UHGV virus genome: UHGV-1651579 | Strand: one strand, 5' to 3' | DNA from: a virus | Length of the DNA: 21,812 bases | In this document: positions 3,215-21,615 of the stretch, in pieces | Layout: each line of letters begins with the position of its first letter | How positions within the stretch are numbered: the first letter of the stretch is position 1 | Notes under the pieces: model-generated | What the model was told of the DNA's origin: nothing | Database searches by the model: none | Seen by the model: only the letters and a program-made list of their open reading frames with translations | Translations under genes and position numbers: made by a program

Positions 3215-3230
3215 AAGTAAGTACTTACAA
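3215..3230 (-). promoter_or_regulatory. P2 box copy 1 (aaGTAAGTACTTACaa)
   Basis: 12-bp perfect palindrome GTAAGTACTTAC about 40 nt upstream of ATG 3174. Confidence 0.55.
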
Positions 3231-3231
3231 T

Positions 3232-3261
3232 ACAAAAAAGCCCCGAAGGATTGGCGGGGCT
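3232..3261 (-). terminator. rho-independent terminator on minus strand (AGCCCCG-N9-CGGGGCT + TTTTTTG)
   Basis: 7-bp GC stem followed by T-run on minus strand; 3' of CDS 3296-3607. Confidence 0.6.
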
Positions 3262-3295
3262 GTCGTACATTCGACTAACTACTGCTTGCACATGT

Positions 3296-3607
3296 TTAAG
3301 CTACCGCCTGAACAGACGCTCGTTGGATCTCTTGTTGGGCGACACGGTTGGCTTCCATCAGCGCCAGTTCAAGCTGGTCCTCTGGCCACATTTTCTGGAC
3401 CGACATCCACCCTCTTCCACGCTGGCGACGAACTACCATCACATAGCGCGTAAAATTGCCCGCGTCGAAGGTAATGGCTTTTTCACGAAACAGACGGATA
3501 GAAGTCCCATTCGCTACGATATCCAGCAATGTGAGATGCCCCATTAAGGTTGGTTTTTCTTTTCTCTCCTGGCCTTCAGCAAGACCCAGCACCAATGAAG
3601 TATTCAT
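3296..3607 (-). CDS. hypothetical protein (103 aa)
   Basis: start revised to ATG at 3607 (GGAG upstream); track ORF extends to 3637. Confidence 0.5.
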   Translation of the reverse strand: MNTSLVLGLAEGQERKEKPTLMGHLTLLDIVANGTSIRLFREKAITFDAGNFTRYVMVVRRQRGRGWMSVQKMWPEDQLELALMEANRVAQQEIQRASVQAVA

Positions 3608-3618
3608 CACCACTCCGT

Positions 3619-3632
3619 AAACAAATTGTTTT
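3619..3632 (-). promoter_or_regulatory. P1 box copy d (AAACAAATTGTTTT)
   Basis: about 12 nt upstream of ATG 3607; cassette variant shares ACTGGTATTRTTTACGC with copy e. Confidence 0.6.
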
Positions 3633-3767
3633 CTCAATGGCGTAAATAATACCAGTGTAAAAACGGCTACAAAGCATATTGCTCAGGCACATGAATTATC
3701 TAAAGGTGGTTCTTCCCTGCGGCTACAGAGAAGTTAAGCCAGCAGGCGGTGCTGGCTTTGGTTGGGC

Positions 3768-4097
3768 TTACGCGAATAACTCAAGGAATTCCTGCACGTC
3801 CCAATGCTGGACAAGGTGAAGATAGAGCTTAGAAATCACGTCATTCTCGCTATCGCATGTGAAGTAGTACTTCTGGCTGCGGTTGTATGTGTCCACACAA
3901 AATTCGCTCATATCCATAAAGTCAGCATCTTCACCCATGTCGCAAATAATCAAAGCAGGAGCATCATCACGAGTCATCAGCTCAAGCACCCAGCGCGAAT
4001 TGATCAGCGTGGAAGACCAACCTTCTAACTCATAAAACTGGTCAAACTCTTTTTGAGTCATTTTCTTGATTTGGTTGATGTCGATATTTGCAAACAT
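3768..4097 (-). CDS. hypothetical protein (109 aa)
   Basis: track start at 4163 is TTG inside the cassette; ATG at 4097 has AAGGA 7 nt upstream. Confidence 0.5.
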   Translation of the reverse strand: MFANIDINQIKKMTQKEFDQFYELEGWSSTLINSRWVLELMTRDDAPALIICDMGEDADFMDMSEFCVDTYNRSQKYYFTCDSENDVISKLYLHLVQHWDVQEFLELFA

Positions 4098-4109
4098 AAA
4101 GCAATCCTT

Positions 4110-4123
4110 AAACATGTTGTTTT
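4110..4123 (-). promoter_or_regulatory. P1 box copy e (AAACATGTTGTTTT)
   Basis: immediately upstream of RBS of CDS 3768-4097. Confidence 0.6.
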
Positions 4124-4236
4124 CTGAATTGCGTAAACAATACCAGTAAGAAAACGGCCACAAAGTATATCGTTACGGTGCTGCGCTGCCCCGGAGGTTA
4201 ATAGCGACAAAAGCCACCGTGCTGGTGGTCTCACTC

Positions 4237-4455
4237 TTAATCTTCGTCGTCCGGGAACTCGCTGTGTACCGCGTCCACCAGCTCCCGCTTTTCATCTTCA
4301 CTAAGCAGGTGCCAGATATCCTTCCCTTTGGGCGATTCCCCTTCTGCCGGGACGAACGACCACAACTTGCGGTACAACTCCGGCCCCACTGCATCCAGAC
4401 ACTCAGCCAGGGAATCCACGCCCCACACCTCAACCGTCACAGGCATCTTAATCAT
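4237..4455 (-). CDS. hypothetical small acidic protein (72 aa)
   Basis: ATG at 4455 with GAGGA 7 nt upstream; overlapping ORFs 4173-4433 and 4219-4482 look non-proteinaceous. Confidence 0.5.
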   Translation of the reverse strand: MIKMPVTVEVWGVDSLAECLDAVGPELYRKLWSFVPAEGESPKGKDIWHLLSEDEKRELVDAVHSEFPDDED

Positions 4456-19855: not shown

Positions 19856-19879
19856 CCCAACCACTGTAGAGAGTAAAAA

Positions 19880-19909
19880 GGCTCACTATCTACTGTAGTG
19901 AGCCTTTTT
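19880..19909 (+). terminator. rho-independent terminator of repA (GGCTCACTA-N7-TAGTGAGCC + T5)
   Basis: 9-bp stem followed by TTTTT, 25 nt after repA stop; stem is itself iteron-like. Confidence 0.7.
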
Positions 19910-20351
19910 GTTTATCGGAAATGCAATATCCACTGTAGTGAGTAAAAGAAACCGAAGAATAACCACTGTAGGCAGTGCGCACAAATCGCGAAGTAAATGT
20001 TAGTGGTTGCAAACATAGATAAAACAAGGGCTGAGAGGTTAGCGGTCACTGGGTATCTCTGTTAAGTCTACTCTCTACAGCGGTTATCGTCGCTCTCCTC
20101 ATTGTTGACTATCCACTGTGAAGAGCAGAATTGGCTGACTTGACCTCTATCCACTGTAGTGAGTGGATATCCGTTTAAAACAGCGAAGATTTACTCTCCA
20201 TAGTGGATATCCGCTGGAGGGGGCATTCCATCACTCTCTATAGTGGTTGTTTGTAGTCAGTGAACGCCTGTTTACTCACTACAGTGTATAGCGACCCCGA
20301 TAATCACCAATTTACTCACTGCAGTGGATAGTTGATATCGTGGCAGGGGGG

Positions 20352-20493
20352 TTGCTCACTACAGTGGTTGGGGTGCATACCCGAATGGTGTTTTACTCAC
20401 TACAGTGGTTGGGGTGCATACCCGAATGGTGTTCTACTCACTACAGTGGTTGGGGTGCATACCTGAAGGGTGTTCTACTCGCTACAGTGGTTA
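20352..20493. repeat. 41-bp tandem repeat, 3.5 units (TTACTCACTACAGTGGTTGGGGTGCATACCCGAATGGTGTT)
   Basis: period 41 bp measured between CTCAC starts at 20355, 20396, 20437, 20478; each unit contains one iteron core. Confidence 0.8.
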
Positions 20494-20546
20494 TGAGCCG
20501 GATTCACACGCGGTGAGCTGGCTACTCACCGCAGTGGATAGTGTTA

Positions 20547-20762
20547 TCAGTGGATTTTCTTCAGCAGACCCCAGAGTGTCCCGGCCTTCGTTGCGAGCTT
20601 ACCTGTTTCCGGATCGTACATGCGCCATTCACGTCGCTGGTGGACAATATACCCATCTTCACGTTCCAGTCGTTCCAGTACGCCGGACTGCTTGAACCCT
20701 TTGGCACGCCAGTAGCCGCTTGTTTTTTCGATTTCCAGACCTGTCAGTGTAACCGCCATCAA
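20547..20762 (-). CDS. hypothetical protein (71 aa)
   Basis: ATG overlaps stop of upstream gene by ATGA. Confidence 0.5.
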   Translation of the reverse strand: MMAVTLTGLEIEKTSGYWRAKGFKQSGVLERLEREDGYIVHQRREWRMYDPETGKLATKAGTLWGLLKKIH

Positions 20763-21094
20763 CTAATCTCCTTGCAGTCATCGAAAAGGTAGCTGTCGTT
20801 CTTCGCGTGAACGCCGTATACATCACCCGATTTGTTGTAAACGAACCTATCTTTACCTACGCCAGATAGTTCGCCGTTACGTTTAGTGAGAAACGGGGAA
20901 GACAGGACACGATTATCGCGTACCACATAAAACTGTTCGCCGCGGTCCACAACCATCGCGCCGTAATTAGCTTTGACGACGTTGCGGATCAGGCCGTTTT
21001 TCGCTTCGACCACAAACATTTCGCACTCATAGACATGTGTGTCCGCAAAGACGGGGAGAGTGAGCAGCGCCAGTACCAGGGCTGTTTTCTTCAT
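20759..21094 (-). CDS. secreted hypothetical protein (111 aa)
   Basis: signal peptide MKKTALVLALLTLPVFA; two Cys in mature part; ATG overlaps stop of upstream small ORF by ATGA. Confidence 0.55.
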   Translation of the reverse strand: MKKTALVLALLTLPVFADTHVYECEMFVVEAKNGLIRNVVKANYGAMVVDRGEQFYVVRDNRVLSSPFLTKRNGELSGVGKDRFVYNKSGDVYGVHAKNDSYLFDDCKEIS

Positions 21095-21270
21095 GCCACG
21101 ACTCCTTTGAAAACGCCTAATGCTGAGTCGAAGACCAGTACTACGGCCAGCGCATTGATCATCACATCATTAACAGGCGCCAGCGCTTTACGGATTGCCC
21201 CTGTGAAGATGCAGTCGAGCACAAAGGCTATCGAGATAATAAGTAACGTGATATCTAATGAAATTTTCAT
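21091..21270 (-). CDS. possible small membrane protein (59 aa, MKISLDITLLIISIAFVLDCIFTGAIRKALAPVNDVMINALAVVLVFDSALGVFKGVVA)
   Basis: hand-translated; below ORF-track cutoff; stop overlaps ATG of 20759-21094 by ATGA; weak RBS. Confidence 0.3.
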   Translation of the reverse strand: MKISLDITLLIISIAFVLDCIFTGAIRKALAPVNDVMINALAVVLVFDSALGVFKGVVA

Positions 21271-21309
21271 GATAGGTAAATGCTAACTTATATATTTTTG
21301 CTGTAAATA

Positions 21310-21585
21310 TCACTTAAAAGTGCTGATACCCAAAATGCGCTCAAGATGGGCCGCGTCTTCATCGCTTACCAGCATTGTGTCGTCAACGTACCAGCAGCTA
21401 CCGTTGTGCCAACAAACACCGTCATCATCGATATAAATAGAATCCGCATCCATTCCTGTGTATTCAACTAGATTGCGTTCAATTGCCGCTTGAATTTCTT
21501 CATCGTTCAGCCCGTCGCACTTGATCATGAACAACGGGTAAACGTCATAGTCGGTACTAGATGAAATGCGAACCAAAGTCTTCAT
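21310..21585 (-). CDS. hypothetical protein (91 aa)
   Basis: ATG 21585 with AAGGA about 9 nt upstream (track ORF extends to 21648); P2 box 21602-21615 in promoter. Confidence 0.5.
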   Translation of the reverse strand: MKTLVRISSSTDYDVYPLFMIKCDGLNDEEIQAAIERNLVEYTGMDADSIYIDDDGVCWHNGSCWYVDDTMLVSDEDAAHLERILGISTFK

Positions 21586-21601
21586 GTGTTTTTTCCTTGT
21601 T

Positions 21602-21615
21602 GGTAAGTACTTATC
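21602..21615 (-). promoter_or_regulatory. P2 box copy 6 (GGTAAGTACTTATC)
   Basis: about 17 nt upstream of ATG 21585, immediately after a TAAGAT -10-like hexamer; followed by CAACAAGGAAAAAACAC resembling the P1 cassette leader. Confidence 0.55.

What the first reader, a model, noticed from the sequence alone, without database searches (positions are those of the whole stretch)
3215..21615. Second palindromic operator GGTAAGTACTTACC defines a separate set of promoters
A 14-bp palindrome (consensus GGTAARTAYTTACC) occurs at 3215-3230, 10010-10023, 14942-14955, 16137-16150, 17138-17151 and 21602-21615, with weaker relatives at about 16523-16540 and 21276-21289. Each lies between or just after a -10-like hexamer on the minus strand, upstream of a different gene or operon (2779-3174; the 9967-to-8043 operon; the 14808 cluster; the region leading to rnhA; the truncated Dam remnant; the 21585 four-gene operon). 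A perfect 14-bp palindrome is typical of a dimeric helix-turn-helix repressor site. With the P1 box this splits the island into at least two co-regulated gene sets. I cannot identify the cognate regulator in the window.
Basis: partly seen in the sequence, partly recalled or inferred. Interest (0 to 1): 0.7.

Follow-up and report, generated by a model that had tools for sequence, protein, structure and literature searches.

The report
Dispersed repressor sites of SSU5-type phage-plasmids
The palindromes are real copies of a roughly 20-bp symmetric DNA site found about 30 times in every SSU5/pHCM2/pMT1-type phage-plasmid, and they are most likely where the element's own prophage repressor binds to keep its lytic genes silent.

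Summary
The window has 7 matches to GGTAAGTACTTACC at up to 3 mismatches, against 0.46 expected by chance.

The window is not an island. It is a rearranged piece of an SSU5-like phage-plasmid, and the motif is genome-wide. Four relatives (pLAO18, SSU5, Cyrano, Klebsiella pJN2-26) each carry about 30 sites, against about 1 expected. The sites are almost all intergenic and kept at syntenic gene junctions of the structural, lysis, replication, nucleotide-metabolism and accessory modules.

The full element is a 20-26 bp dyad, ATA(G/A)GTAAGTACTTAC(C/T)TAT. The two halves deviate independently, and no σ70 promoter lies at a fixed distance from the site. I read it as a binding site for a dimeric protein, not an RNA hairpin.

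The best candidate binder is a 129-aa XRE helix-turn-helix (HTH) protein (Cyrano CYRAN_45). It is encoded next to the integrase, outside the window, and a site overlaps the start of its own promoter.

The motif's inner bases differ between lineages (Enterobacter pCP102, an Acinetobacter element). The recognition helix of this protein differs in the same lineages.

The closest analogues are mycobacteriophage L5 "stoperators" and the dispersed C1 operators of P1. Binding is inferred, not shown. SSU5 lacks the repressor yet keeps the sites. I found no prior description in the searched literature.

The parts
3213..3232 (.). Site ATAAGTAAGTACTTACAATA (14-mer 3216-3229). On the minus strand it lies 4 nt after a terminator-like hairpin and T-run, and 41 nt before the ATG (3174) of ORF 2779-3174.
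   Evidence: PWM 21.6. Orthologous sites in SSU5 (93168), Cyrano (96689), pJN2-26 (28034) and pLAO18 (85260).
10007..10026 (.). Site TTAGGTAAGTATTTACCTAT (14-mer 10010-10023). It abuts the stop codon of the DUF4942 methyltransferase ORF (10026-11729, minus strand). It lies 42 nt before the ATG (9967) of ORF 9278-9967.
   Evidence: PWM 29.5. Orthologues: SSU5 84181, Cyrano 84623, pJN2-26 20938, pLAO18 92071.
14939..14958 (.). Site GTAGGTAAATACTTACTTAT (14-mer 14942-14955). It overlaps the stop codon of the RNase H-like ORF 14951-15559 (minus strand). It lies 133 nt before ATG 14808.
   Evidence: PWM 28.9. Orthologues: SSU5 79907, Cyrano 79654, pJN2-26 16845, pLAO18 96824.
16134..16153 (.). Site AATGGTAAGTACTTACCTAT, with the perfect 14-mer at 16137-16150. 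It abuts the stop of the 76-aa ORF 16153-16383 (minus strand).
   Evidence: PWM 27.7. Orthologues: SSU5 78712, pLAO18 98020.
17131..17150 (.). In intact relatives it lies 117 nt upstream of sbcD. Here it precedes the deletion junction near 16953-16972 and the truncated dam remnant.
Evidence: Orthologues: pLAO18 110209, SSU5 63083, Cyrano 63202, pJN2-26 346.
21272..21291 (.). Site ATAGGTAAATGCTAACTTAT (14-mer 21275-21288), 4 nt before the ATG (21270) of ORF 21091-21270 (minus strand).
   Evidence: PWM 20.9. Orthologues: pLAO18 2354, SSU5 58077, Cyrano 59402.
21599..21618 (.). Site GTTGGTAAGTACTTATCTAT (14-mer 21602-21615), 16 nt before the ATG at 21585, directly upstream of the Shine-Dalgarno AAGGAA (minus strand). 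As RNA this copy does not fold into a stable hairpin.
   Evidence: PWM 26.9. RNA fold -0.2 kcal/mol. Orthologues: pLAO18 2681, SSU5 57749.
16520..16543 (.). Weak, doubtful match (AATAATTAGTACTTAGTTATTTAT). It is the centre of a separate long AT-rich palindrome of roughly 40-55 bp and is probably not a member of the family.
   Evidence: PWM 10.9-12.6. Equally weak at the same place in SSU5, pJN2-26 and pLAO18.

Best explanation
**What it is**
- The palindromes are copies of a 20-26 bp dyad-symmetric DNA site, consensus a(a/t)(a/g)ATA(G/A)GTAAGTACTTAC(C/T)TAT(c/t)(a/t)t.
- It occurs about 25-35 times in every SSU5/pHCM2/pMT1-type phage-plasmid, at the junctions between genes of essentially all lytic-cycle modules.

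**How it most likely works (inferred)**
- A dimer of the element's own XRE-family helix-turn-helix prophage repressor binds these sites. This is the 129-aa CYRAN_45 / WP_003980690 family, encoded next to the integrase and outside this window.
- In the plasmid-prophage state, binding keeps the lytic genes silent.
- At some places the site overlaps the transcription start and acts as a classical operator. By sequence this holds for the repressor's own promoter, which implies autoregulation.
- At most other junctions no fixed promoter is visible. There the bound repressor probably blocks weak local promoters or read-through transcription, like the 'stoperators' of mycobacteriophage L5.

**Shown here**
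- The sites exist, are enriched, are intergenic, are conserved at syntenic positions, and are symmetric with independent halves.
- Lineage-specific motif variants coincide with variants of the repressor's recognition helix.

**Inferred, not shown**
- Physical binding, the identity of the binding protein, and repression.
For: **Enrichment**
- Window: 7 matches against 0.46 expected.
- pLAO18: 24 matches at up to 3 mismatches, against about 2.3 expected.
- PWM score of 12 or more: 33-36 sites per genome in pLAO18, SSU5 and Cyrano, against 0.5-1 in shuffles. pJN2-26 has 26 sites in 100 kb.

**Location**
- pLAO18: 21 of 24 sites are not fully inside an annotated gene, while 82% of the genome is annotated as coding.
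- SSU5: 26 of 29 likewise, at 88% coding.

**Conservation**
- Of 25 SSU5 sites, a site is present at the syntenic position in 24 (Cyrano), 20 (pJN2-26) and 25 (pLAO18).
- Identity is 0.84-0.93 inside the 20-mer and 0.58-0.78 in the 10 nt on either side.

**DNA site rather than RNA stem**
- Over 99 sites there are 263 one-sided deviations against 55 two-sided ones. The two-sided count is close to what independent halves would give.
- Both flanks are symmetric regardless of gene direction.
- Site 21602 does not fold as RNA.

**Candidate binder**
- It matches phrog_8 'transcriptional regulator' at 1.3e-10.
- An AlphaFold2 model has pLDDT 82-88 for residues 11-70.
- Its fold matches the N-terminal domain of P22 c2, 434 and lambda repressors, C.AhdI, HigA and SinR.
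- Its own promoter-like sequence, TTTACA-16-TAATAT, is followed closely by the palindrome. The same arrangement is present in Cyrano, pJN2-26 and pMT1.
- CYRAN_45 is annotated as a putative repressor and is expressed in the Cyrano lysogen (PMC9928086).

**Co-variation between motif and recognition helix**

| Type | Elements | Motif | Recognition helix |
|---|---|---|---|
| A | E. coli, Salmonella, Klebsiella, Yersinia pMT1 | inner hexamer AGTACT | GYKN(P/A)NNLSLIKSGK in these A-type elements |
| B | Enterobacter pCP102 | same outer arms, inner hexamer G(T/C)TA(A/G)C; position 8 is G in 12/17 and position 13 is C in 15/17 | GYENANNLSNIKTGR |
| C | A. baumannii element | AGTCAGTACTGACT, 13 sites against 1.2 expected; type A gives 0 | GFKRPNVLSMIKSGE |
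| D (suggestive) | Logan contig L142 | TAGGTAT-N4-ATACCTA, 4 sites against 0.6 expected | GYTAHNNISMIKSGK |

**Expression in the lysogen**
- Cyrano genes expressed in the lysogen (toxin-antitoxin, parA operon and others) mostly lack a strong site just upstream. The strong sites precede lytic genes.
Against: - No binding data exist. The link between protein and site is correlative, because every protein diverges between lineages. pCP102 has a median of 63% amino-acid identity to Cyrano.
- The SSU5 virion isolate lacks the integrase, the repressor and the 70-aa ORF. It still keeps 29 sites of normal quality: mean PWM 24.3, against 22.0-26.2 in repressor-carrying genomes. Either the loss is recent or the sites also serve something else.
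- Most sites have no recognisable -35 or -10 at a fixed distance. Some are followed by a terminator hairpin before the next gene. 'Operator at a promoter' therefore holds by sequence only for a minority.
- In the type-B lineage the site nearest the repressor gene is about 120 nt upstream, with no predicted promoter beside it.
- Pfam gives no hit for the candidate protein.
Confidence: 0.6

Rival explanations
1. The sites bind a different phage-encoded dimeric DNA-binding protein that acts positively. An example would be a middle or late-gene activator that replaces the -35, as Lpa does at P1 late promoters, which carry a palindrome upstream of a -10. In that case the palindrome is part of a phage-specific promoter.
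For: - The sites precede nearly all lytic transcription units, including late structural genes.
- Canonical -35 elements are missing.
- TAT(C/T)(A/T)T hexamers directly flank the core.
- SSU5 keeps intact sites although it lacks the XRE repressor. That fits a function needed for lytic growth.
Against: - The flanking hexamers are symmetric and show no preference for the gene's direction.
- At least five sites per genome lie only 14-20 nt before the start codon, with the Shine-Dalgarno sequence directly after the site. This leaves no room for a downstream -10.
- A -10 at 16-18 nt downstream of the right arm is no better in the gene orientation than in the antisense orientation.
- No activator candidate was identified. 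The 70-aa 'putative regulator' CYRAN_37 has no homologue in pCP102, which still has the motif.
Confidence: 0.14
2. The sites bind another conserved phage protein with a non-transcriptional role, or a global plasmid-style regulatory one. Candidates are one of the two ParB/Srx-like proteins encoded upstream of the terminase (a KorB-like global regulon, DNA condensation or packaging) or the 70-aa ORF divergent from the repressor (a Cro-like lytic regulator sharing the operators).
For: - ParB-like genes are conserved in all members, including SSU5.
- A site lies in the divergent region just upstream of the ParB-like operon in every genome.
- KorB-type ParB proteins are known to bind dispersed palindromes (established knowledge of IncP plasmids).
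Against: - The ParB-like proteins are 73-78% identical between Cyrano and pCP102, above the genome median of 63%, although the motif has changed.
- Pseudomonas phage nickie has the same ParB-like genes and synteny but no such motif in its first 50 kb.
- No test could separate Cro-like from repressor binding.
Confidence: 0.1
3. The element works as RNA. It would be a short hairpin (8-bp stem, GUAC loop) in intercistronic or 5'-untranslated regions that stabilises, processes or translationally controls the mRNAs.
For: - Many sites lie 14-60 nt before a start codon and directly after the upstream stop codon.
- The consensus 20-mer folds at -6.6 kcal/mol and the 28-mer at -13.1 kcal/mol.
- The lineage-level change A8/T13 to G8/C13 preserves base pairing.
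Against: - One-sided, pair-breaking deviations dominate (263 against 55), and double changes show no excess over independence.
- Stem bases are conserved in identity, not only in pairing. T5 and A14 are invariant in 98 of 98 sites.
- The conserved site 21602 has no stable fold (-0.2 kcal/mol).
- Sites also lie in divergent promoter regions, namely the repressor promoter and the helicase/ParB region.
- There is no U-tract and no Rfam match.
Confidence: 0.08
4. The sites are bound by a conserved host transcription factor of Enterobacteriaceae that the phage-plasmid exploits.
For: - The motif is identical in elements from Escherichia, Salmonella, Klebsiella and Yersinia although their proteins have diverged.
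- SSU5 keeps the sites without the phage repressor.
Against: - Enterobacter carries both motif types. The A-type repressors P0006 and P0016 come from E. asburiae and E. hormaechei. Type B comes from Enterobacter sp. pCP102.
- Outside SSU5-like contigs, the perfect 14-mer occurs only as single copies with random flanks.
- The perfect 20-mer is absent from the 185,579 species-representative genomes.
Confidence: 0.04

Closest known systems
Stoperators and operators of Cluster A mycobacteriophages (L5, Bxb1), bound by the immunity repressor gp71
   Same: - 20-30 repressor sites are spread through the genome in short intergenic regions of both early and late operons.
- Only a few of those sites lie in promoters; the rest block elongation.
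- Heteroimmune relatives have distinct consensus sequences that co-vary with their repressors (PMC6550527).
- Here there are about 30 intergenic sites per genome, no fixed promoter geometry, and lineage-specific variants that track the repressor's recognition helix.
   Different: - L5 sites are asymmetric 13-bp sequences oriented with transcription and lack dyad symmetry. Here the sites are 20-26 bp perfect dyads, which implies a dimer.
- The candidate repressor has an XRE/P22 c2-like fold. Homology to gp71 was not tested.
- The hosts are Gammaproteobacteria.
- Blocking of elongation is not shown here.
Bacteriophage P1 C1 repressor with operators dispersed over the plasmid-prophage genome
   Same: - It is a phage-plasmid whose master repressor binds operator sequences present across the genome and represses the promoters near them (PMC8198154).
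- The repressor has no self-cleavage domain, so induction would have to work through antirepressors. Relatives of this window encode Ant/Rha-type proteins.
   Different: - The P1 operator is an asymmetric 17-bp sequence (my own knowledge, not checked here). Here the site is a dyad.
- No similarity of the 129-aa protein to C1 was seen. Pfam gave no hit, and the fold is XRE-like.
Lambdoid-type CI/Cro (XRE-fold) repressor-operator switches such as P22 c2 and 434
   Same: - The predicted five-helix HTH domain superposes on the P22 c2 N-terminal domain (target-normalised TM-score 0.79-0.80, rmsd 1.5 Å) and on the 434 and lambda repressors.
- The operators are dyad-symmetric.
- The repressor gene is divergent from a small ORF and has an operator at its own promoter.
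   Different: - Lambdoid phages have about 6 operators in two clusters. Here there are about 30 single sites dispersed over 100 kb.
- There is no S24 peptidase domain.
KorA/KorB global regulons of IncP plasmids
   Same: Short palindromic operators are repeated at many promoters around a plasmid and coordinate its backbone genes (established knowledge, not checked here).
   Different: The proteins, sequences and biology differ. The IncP regulons control conjugative plasmid maintenance and transfer. No KorA or KorB homologue was linked to the motif here.

Membership tests
XRE/Cro-CI-type HTH repressor with dyad operators | Operator is dyad-symmetric with independently constrained half-sites | tested here: met
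   The consensus is symmetric out to 26 bp. One-sided deviations number 263 against 55 two-sided, close to the expectation for independent halves.
XRE/Cro-CI-type HTH repressor with dyad operators | The element encodes an XRE-fold HTH protein in an immunity-like locus | tested here: met
   - The 129-aa protein lies next to the integrase and is divergent from a 70-aa ORF in pLAO18, Cyrano, pJN2-26, pCP102, pMT1 and an Acinetobacter element.
- It matches phrog_8 at 1.3e-10, and its fold matches P22 c2, 434 and C.AhdI.
- It is not in the window and not in SSU5.
XRE/Cro-CI-type HTH repressor with dyad operators | Operator overlaps the core promoter or transcription start of the regulated gene | tested here: inconclusive
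   This is clear only for the repressor's own promoter, TTTACA-16-TAATAT followed by the site. There is no consistent geometry elsewhere.
XRE/Cro-CI-type HTH repressor with dyad operators | The protein physically binds the site and represses transcription | not testable with these tools
   This needs EMSA or footprinting, ChIP-seq and reporter assays.
Cluster A mycobacteriophage stoperator system | 20-30 repressor sites dispersed in intergenic regions over the whole genome | tested here: met
   29-30 merged sites per genome at PWM 10 or above in SSU5, Cyrano and pLAO18, and 26 in the first 100 kb of pJN2-26. At least 86% of sites in pLAO18 and SSU5 are not fully inside an annotated gene.
Cluster A mycobacteriophage stoperator system | [quoted passage not shown] | tested here: not met
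   The sites are perfect dyads, and their flanks show no strand asymmetry relative to the genes.
Cluster A mycobacteriophage stoperator system | The motif consensus co-varies with the repressor between heteroimmune lineages | tested here: met
   Motif types A, B, C and a suggestive D coincide with different recognition helices. Immunity phenotypes were not tested.
Cluster A mycobacteriophage stoperator system | The repressor is homologous to L5 gp71 | not tested
   No gp71 sequence was compared. The XRE-like fold and dimer-type site argue for analogy rather than homology.
P1 Lpa-dependent late promoter | A -10 hexamer lies at a fixed distance downstream of the palindrome, in the direction of the gene | tested here: not met
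   The TA-rich flanks are symmetric. Several sites lie 14-20 nt before the start codon with no room for a -10.
Structured RNA element or intrinsic terminator | Pairing is preserved by compensatory changes; a terminator also needs a U-tract | tested here: not met
   There is no excess of compensated pairs and no U-tract. Site 21602 does not fold. Rfam gives no match in the window.

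The most novel reading that the evidence does not exclude
SSU5/pHCM2/pMT1-type phage-plasmids silence their roughly 100-kb lytic genome through a dyad-symmetric, stoperator-like network. About 30 binding sites for one small XRE repressor sit at gene junctions. The network exists in at least three or four specificity types that co-evolve with the repressor's recognition helix. 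These types would define immunity groups, and possibly co-residence groups, among these clinically widespread elements, including Y. pestis pMT1.
Probability: 0.4. Interest if true: 0.7.

Novelty: new member of a known kind. Interest (0 to 1): 0.55.

Why it matters
- SSU5-like phage-plasmids are common in clinical Enterobacteriaceae. Homologues of the candidate repressor occur in 863 PLSDB plasmids from Klebsiella, Escherichia, Enterobacter, Yersinia, Salmonella and Acinetobacter.
- These elements carry resistance and virulence cargo. In pMT1 the F1 capsule operon lies 1.9 kb from the repressor gene.
- The papers I could search name no operator and no regulatory logic for this family.
- A defined site, a candidate repressor and natural specificity variants make several things directly testable. 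These are the lysis-lysogeny control, the induction route and the superinfection-immunity groups.
- The site also gives a simple sequence marker (about 30 copies per genome) for recognising and typing such elements and their fragments inside larger plasmids.
- Conceptually, it would extend the 'many dispersed repressor sites' strategy of P1 and mycobacteriophage L5 to a third, unrelated phage group, using a dimeric XRE protein.

Tried and rejected
**Promoter geometries**
- Canonical σ70 promoter upstream, with the palindrome at +1: the best -35 match is only 2.95, against 2.47 at random. The upstream flank is poorly conserved. Rejected as a general rule; kept for the repressor's own promoter.
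- Right arm of the palindrome as the -35, with a -10 at 16-18 nt downstream: no preference for the gene orientation.

**Other explanations**
- RNA hairpin: disfavoured.

**Comparative searches that gave little**
- Pseudomonas phage nickie (TerL 57% identical, syntenic) was fetched to look for motif co-variation. It has no comparable repeated palindrome in its first 50 kb.
- An IMG/VR scan for the perfect 14-mer gave 51 SSU5-like loci and 69 unrelated single chance copies. No other phage family uses the motif.
- The perfect 20-mer has no match in the species-representative genomes.
- A sequence search of the repressor against the PDB found nothing useful. Pfam gave no hit.

**Candidates set aside**
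- The 338-aa protein annotated 'regulator' is a gp32-like single-strand-binding protein.
- The 175-aa 'transcriptional regulator' is FljA-like (PF03614).
- The 255-aa plus-strand ORF is GIY-YIG-like.

**Literature**
- Searches found no description of the motif.
- One possibly relevant 2026 preprint on phage-plasmid heteroresistance is listed but could not be opened.
- The promoter of the type-B repressor could not be defined.

Full report
**1. Observation**

GGTAAGTACTTACC, allowing up to 3 mismatches, occurs 7 times in the 21.8-kb window. The expectation is 0.46, and none of 100 dinucleotide shuffles reached 7.

All six listed sites exist. The one at 17138 is better read 4 nt to the left, at 17134-17147. 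The 'weak' site at 21276 is a good one (21275-21288). The one at 16523 is weak and is the centre of a different, larger palindrome.

**2. What the window is**

- Positions 1-16954 match the accessory and early region of SSU5-like phage-plasmids at 95-99.7% identity to E. coli plasmids and 90% to Salmonella phage SSU5.
- Positions 16953-21812 match the repA region of the same family.
- Relative to the complete relative pLAO18, about 11 kb is missing, from dam to the region upstream of sbcD. The junction lies near 16953-16972.
- The 'island' is therefore a rearranged phage-plasmid segment.

**3. The motif is genome-wide and family-wide**

- pLAO18 (111,874 bp) has 24 matches at up to 3 mismatches, against about 2.3 expected.
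- A symmetric 20-nt position weight matrix (PWM) gives 33-36 hits at a score of 12 or more in pLAO18, SSU5 and Cyrano, against 0.5-1.0 in shuffles.
- Klebsiella phage pJN2-26 has 26 sites in 100 kb.
- The examined 40-kb segment of Y. pestis pMT1 also carries them.
- The sites precede or separate the following genes: terL/portal, capsid/decoration, tail, tail-fibre, holin, the dnaB-primase operon, gp32-like SSB, nrdA, thyX, dam, sbcD, the repA-side small genes and many accessory genes.
- They are overwhelmingly intergenic. In pLAO18, 21 of 24 are not fully inside an annotated gene although 82% of the genome is annotated as coding. In SSU5 the figures are 26 of 29 and 88%.
- Plasmid-maintenance units (repA, parA, toxin-antitoxin genes, integrase) lack them.
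The other 69 hold single copies with random flanks.

**4. Anatomy**

- Alignment of 98 sites gives a(a/t)(a/g)ATA(G/A)GTAAGTACTTAC(C/T)TAT(c/t)(a/t)t. The element is symmetric over 26 bp, and T5 and A14 of the 20-mer are invariant.
They occur on both sides regardless of gene direction.
- There is no conserved -35. The best match averages 2.95, against 2.47 at random positions.
- The alternative geometry, in which the right arm serves as the -35, shows no strand preference.
- Sites tend to abut or overlap the stop codon of the upstream gene. The motif itself contains TAG and TAA.
- Sites lie 1-130 nt before the next start codon. Several lie 14-20 nt before it, directly in front of the Shine-Dalgarno sequence.
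- Some sites are preceded by a terminator-like hairpin (window 3216). Others are followed by one before the next gene, for example at capsid/Ig-like gene and upstream of nrdA.

**5. Conservation**

- Of 25 SSU5 sites, a site is present at the syntenic position in 24 (Cyrano), 20 (pJN2-26) and 25 (pLAO18).
- Identity is 0.84-0.93 inside the 20-mer and 0.58-0.78 in the adjacent 10 nt. The site is an island of constraint, more conserved than the flanking ends of the coding regions.

**6. DNA site or RNA hairpin?**

- Over 99 sites, deviations from consensus are mostly one-sided (263) rather than two-sided (55).
- The two-sided count matches the expectation for independent halves. For the G/C pair at positions 3/16, 32 were observed against 27.6 expected.
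- Real copies fold weakly as RNA, at -4 to -6 kcal/mol. The conserved site at 21602 does not fold at all (-0.2 kcal/mol).
- Rfam finds nothing in the window.
- Together with the strict conservation of base identity, this favours recognition of two half-sites on DNA by a dimer.

**7. The candidate binder**

- Complete relatives carry a 126-129 aa protein beside the integrase, divergent from a 70-aa ORF. It is pLAO18 26227-26616, Cyrano CYRAN_45 and pJN2-26 gene 0108.
- CYRAN_45 is annotated as 'putative repressor, HTH DNA binding domain protein' in the Cyrano record. It is among the genes expressed in the Cyrano lysogen (PMC9928086).
- It matches phrog_8 'transcriptional regulator' at 1.3e-10.
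- An AlphaFold2 model has pLDDT 82-88 for residues 11-70, with helices at 28-35 and 41-47.
- Foldseek matches this region to the P22 c2 N-terminal domain (target-normalised TM-score 0.79-0.80, rmsd 1.5 Å), to 434 and lambda repressors, and to C.AhdI, HigA, SinR and Stl.
- Its own upstream region holds the only σ70-like promoter of the intergenic space, TTTACA-16-TAATAT. The palindrome follows closely, so the expected transcription start falls inside the site. The same arrangement is present in Cyrano, pJN2-26 and pMT1.
- The protein is not encoded in the window.

**8. Co-variation between motif and repressor**

In the A-type elements examined (aligned homologues 56-95% identical overall, plus pLAO18, Cyrano, pJN2-26 and pMT1), the recognition region GYKN(P/A)NNLSLIKSGKIPLP is kept. 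One aligned E. coli homologue, P0017, differs in it and its element was not examined. All the examined elements use the A-type motif.

A profile search found more distant syntenic orthologues.

| Lineage | Motif | Recognition helix |
|---|---|---|
| B: Enterobacter sp. pCP102 and Logan/ENA contigs; repressor P0053 is 46-50% identical to A-type | outer arms ATARGTA...TACYTAT kept; inner hexamer AGTACT becomes G(T/C)TA(A/G)C; position 8 is G in 12/17 and position 13 is C in 15/17 (A-type genomes: A in 15-18 and T in 13-17 of 22-24 sites per genome) | GYENANNLSNIKTGR |
| C: an A. baumannii element | AGTCAGTACTGACT, 13 sites against 1.2 expected in 40 kb, five of them perfect; no A-type site | GFKRPNVLSMIKSGE |
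| D: contig L142, suggestive | TAGGTAT-N4-ATACCTA, 4 sites against 0.6 expected | GYTAHNNISMIKSGK |

Enterobacter hosts carry both A-type and B-type elements, which argues against a host factor.

This pattern is what is described for heteroimmune Cluster A mycobacteriophages and their stoperators (PMC6550527).

**9. Caveats**

- All proteins diverge between these lineages. pCP102 has a median of 63% identity to Cyrano. The co-variation is therefore correlative.
- The plaque-isolated phage SSU5 lacks the integrase, the repressor and the 70-aa ORF. It nevertheless keeps 29 sites of normal quality. Either it is a recent virulent deletion derivative, or the sites also serve lytic growth.
- The promoter next to the type-B repressor could not be defined.
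- No experiment on binding exists in the papers I could search.

**10. Verdict**

The palindromes are real. They are one part of a family-wide network of about 30 dyad-symmetric protein-binding sites.

The most likely mechanism (confidence about 0.6) is binding of the phage-plasmid's XRE-type prophage repressor. It would act as an operator at some promoters, including its own, and as a gene-junction roadblock elsewhere. This resembles P1 C1 operators and L5 stoperators, but with a dimeric XRE protein.

I rate it a new member of a known kind, of moderate interest.

Noticed in passing
window 1485, 1970, 2720, 3618, 4109, 5689, 7256, 7307, 7685, 8001, 11723, 12926 (15-mers): A second palindrome family, AAAACAAnTTGTTTT, has 12 sites against 2.5 expected in the window and 15-21 per genome in five relatives. 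It is unchanged in the type-B lineage pCP102 and absent from the Acinetobacter locus. It lies about 18-40 nt before start codons (terS, twice; parA; dnaB; cobT; many accessory genes). Its regulator is unknown.
   Followed up: partly
window about 16495-16550: A GC-clamped, AT-rich imperfect palindrome of about 55 bp is centred on AGTACT. On the minus strand it reads CCTGCTTCCGTATATATAAATAACTAAGTACTAATTATTAATATATACAGACGCAGG. A related sequence lies between the 76-aa gene and dam in pCP102, which also has a second copy upstream of terS. A weak PWM match marks the same place in SSU5, Cyrano, pJN2-26 and pLAO18. It could be an origin, a packaging site or a strong terminator.
   Followed up: no
window 16953-16972: This is a deletion junction. 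A truncated dam is fused to the region upstream of sbcD. The roughly 11-kb nucleotide-metabolism module of intact relatives (thyX, dfr and others; pLAO18 about 99.2-110.3 kb) is missing.
   Followed up: partly
L126-L128 (Salmonella phage SSU5, NC_018843), between 41776 and 42761: The plaque-isolated type phage SSU5 lacks the integrase, the XRE repressor and the 70-aa ORF that the plasmid-borne relatives carry. This suggests it is a virulent deletion derivative.
   Followed up: partly
L140 (Y. pestis pMT, NC_008120) locus 19977-27350: In pMT1 the F1 capsule operon (caf1R, caf1M, caf1A, caf1) lies 1.9 kb from the A-type repressor gene, at the place where other members carry the integrase. The repressor's promoter and palindrome are intact.
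   Followed up: no
L003 31094-31621 (pLAO18 81094-81621), about 1 kb left of the window start: pLAO18, SSU5, Cyrano, pJN2-26 and pCP102 encode a 173-175 aa homologue of FljA, the repressor of phase-1 flagellin (Pfam PF03614, E = 7e-95). A phage-plasmid might use it to shut off host flagellin.
   Followed up: no
L133 (Pseudomonas phage nickie, MG018927) 9430-9461: Nickie is a syntenic, distant relative (TerL 57% identical, 58% GC). It has no repeated motif of this kind in its first 50 kb. It carries one unique 32-bp imperfect palindrome exactly at the terL-portal junction, where SSU5-like genomes have a site.
   Followed up: partly
all SSU5-like genomes, for example SSU5 3547 and pLAO18 71659: One site, ATAAGTCAGTACTTACTTAT, lies inside the 3' part of the portal gene and is identical in all four A-type genomes. 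Its left half, GTCAG, equals the Acinetobacter type-C half-site.
   Followed up: no
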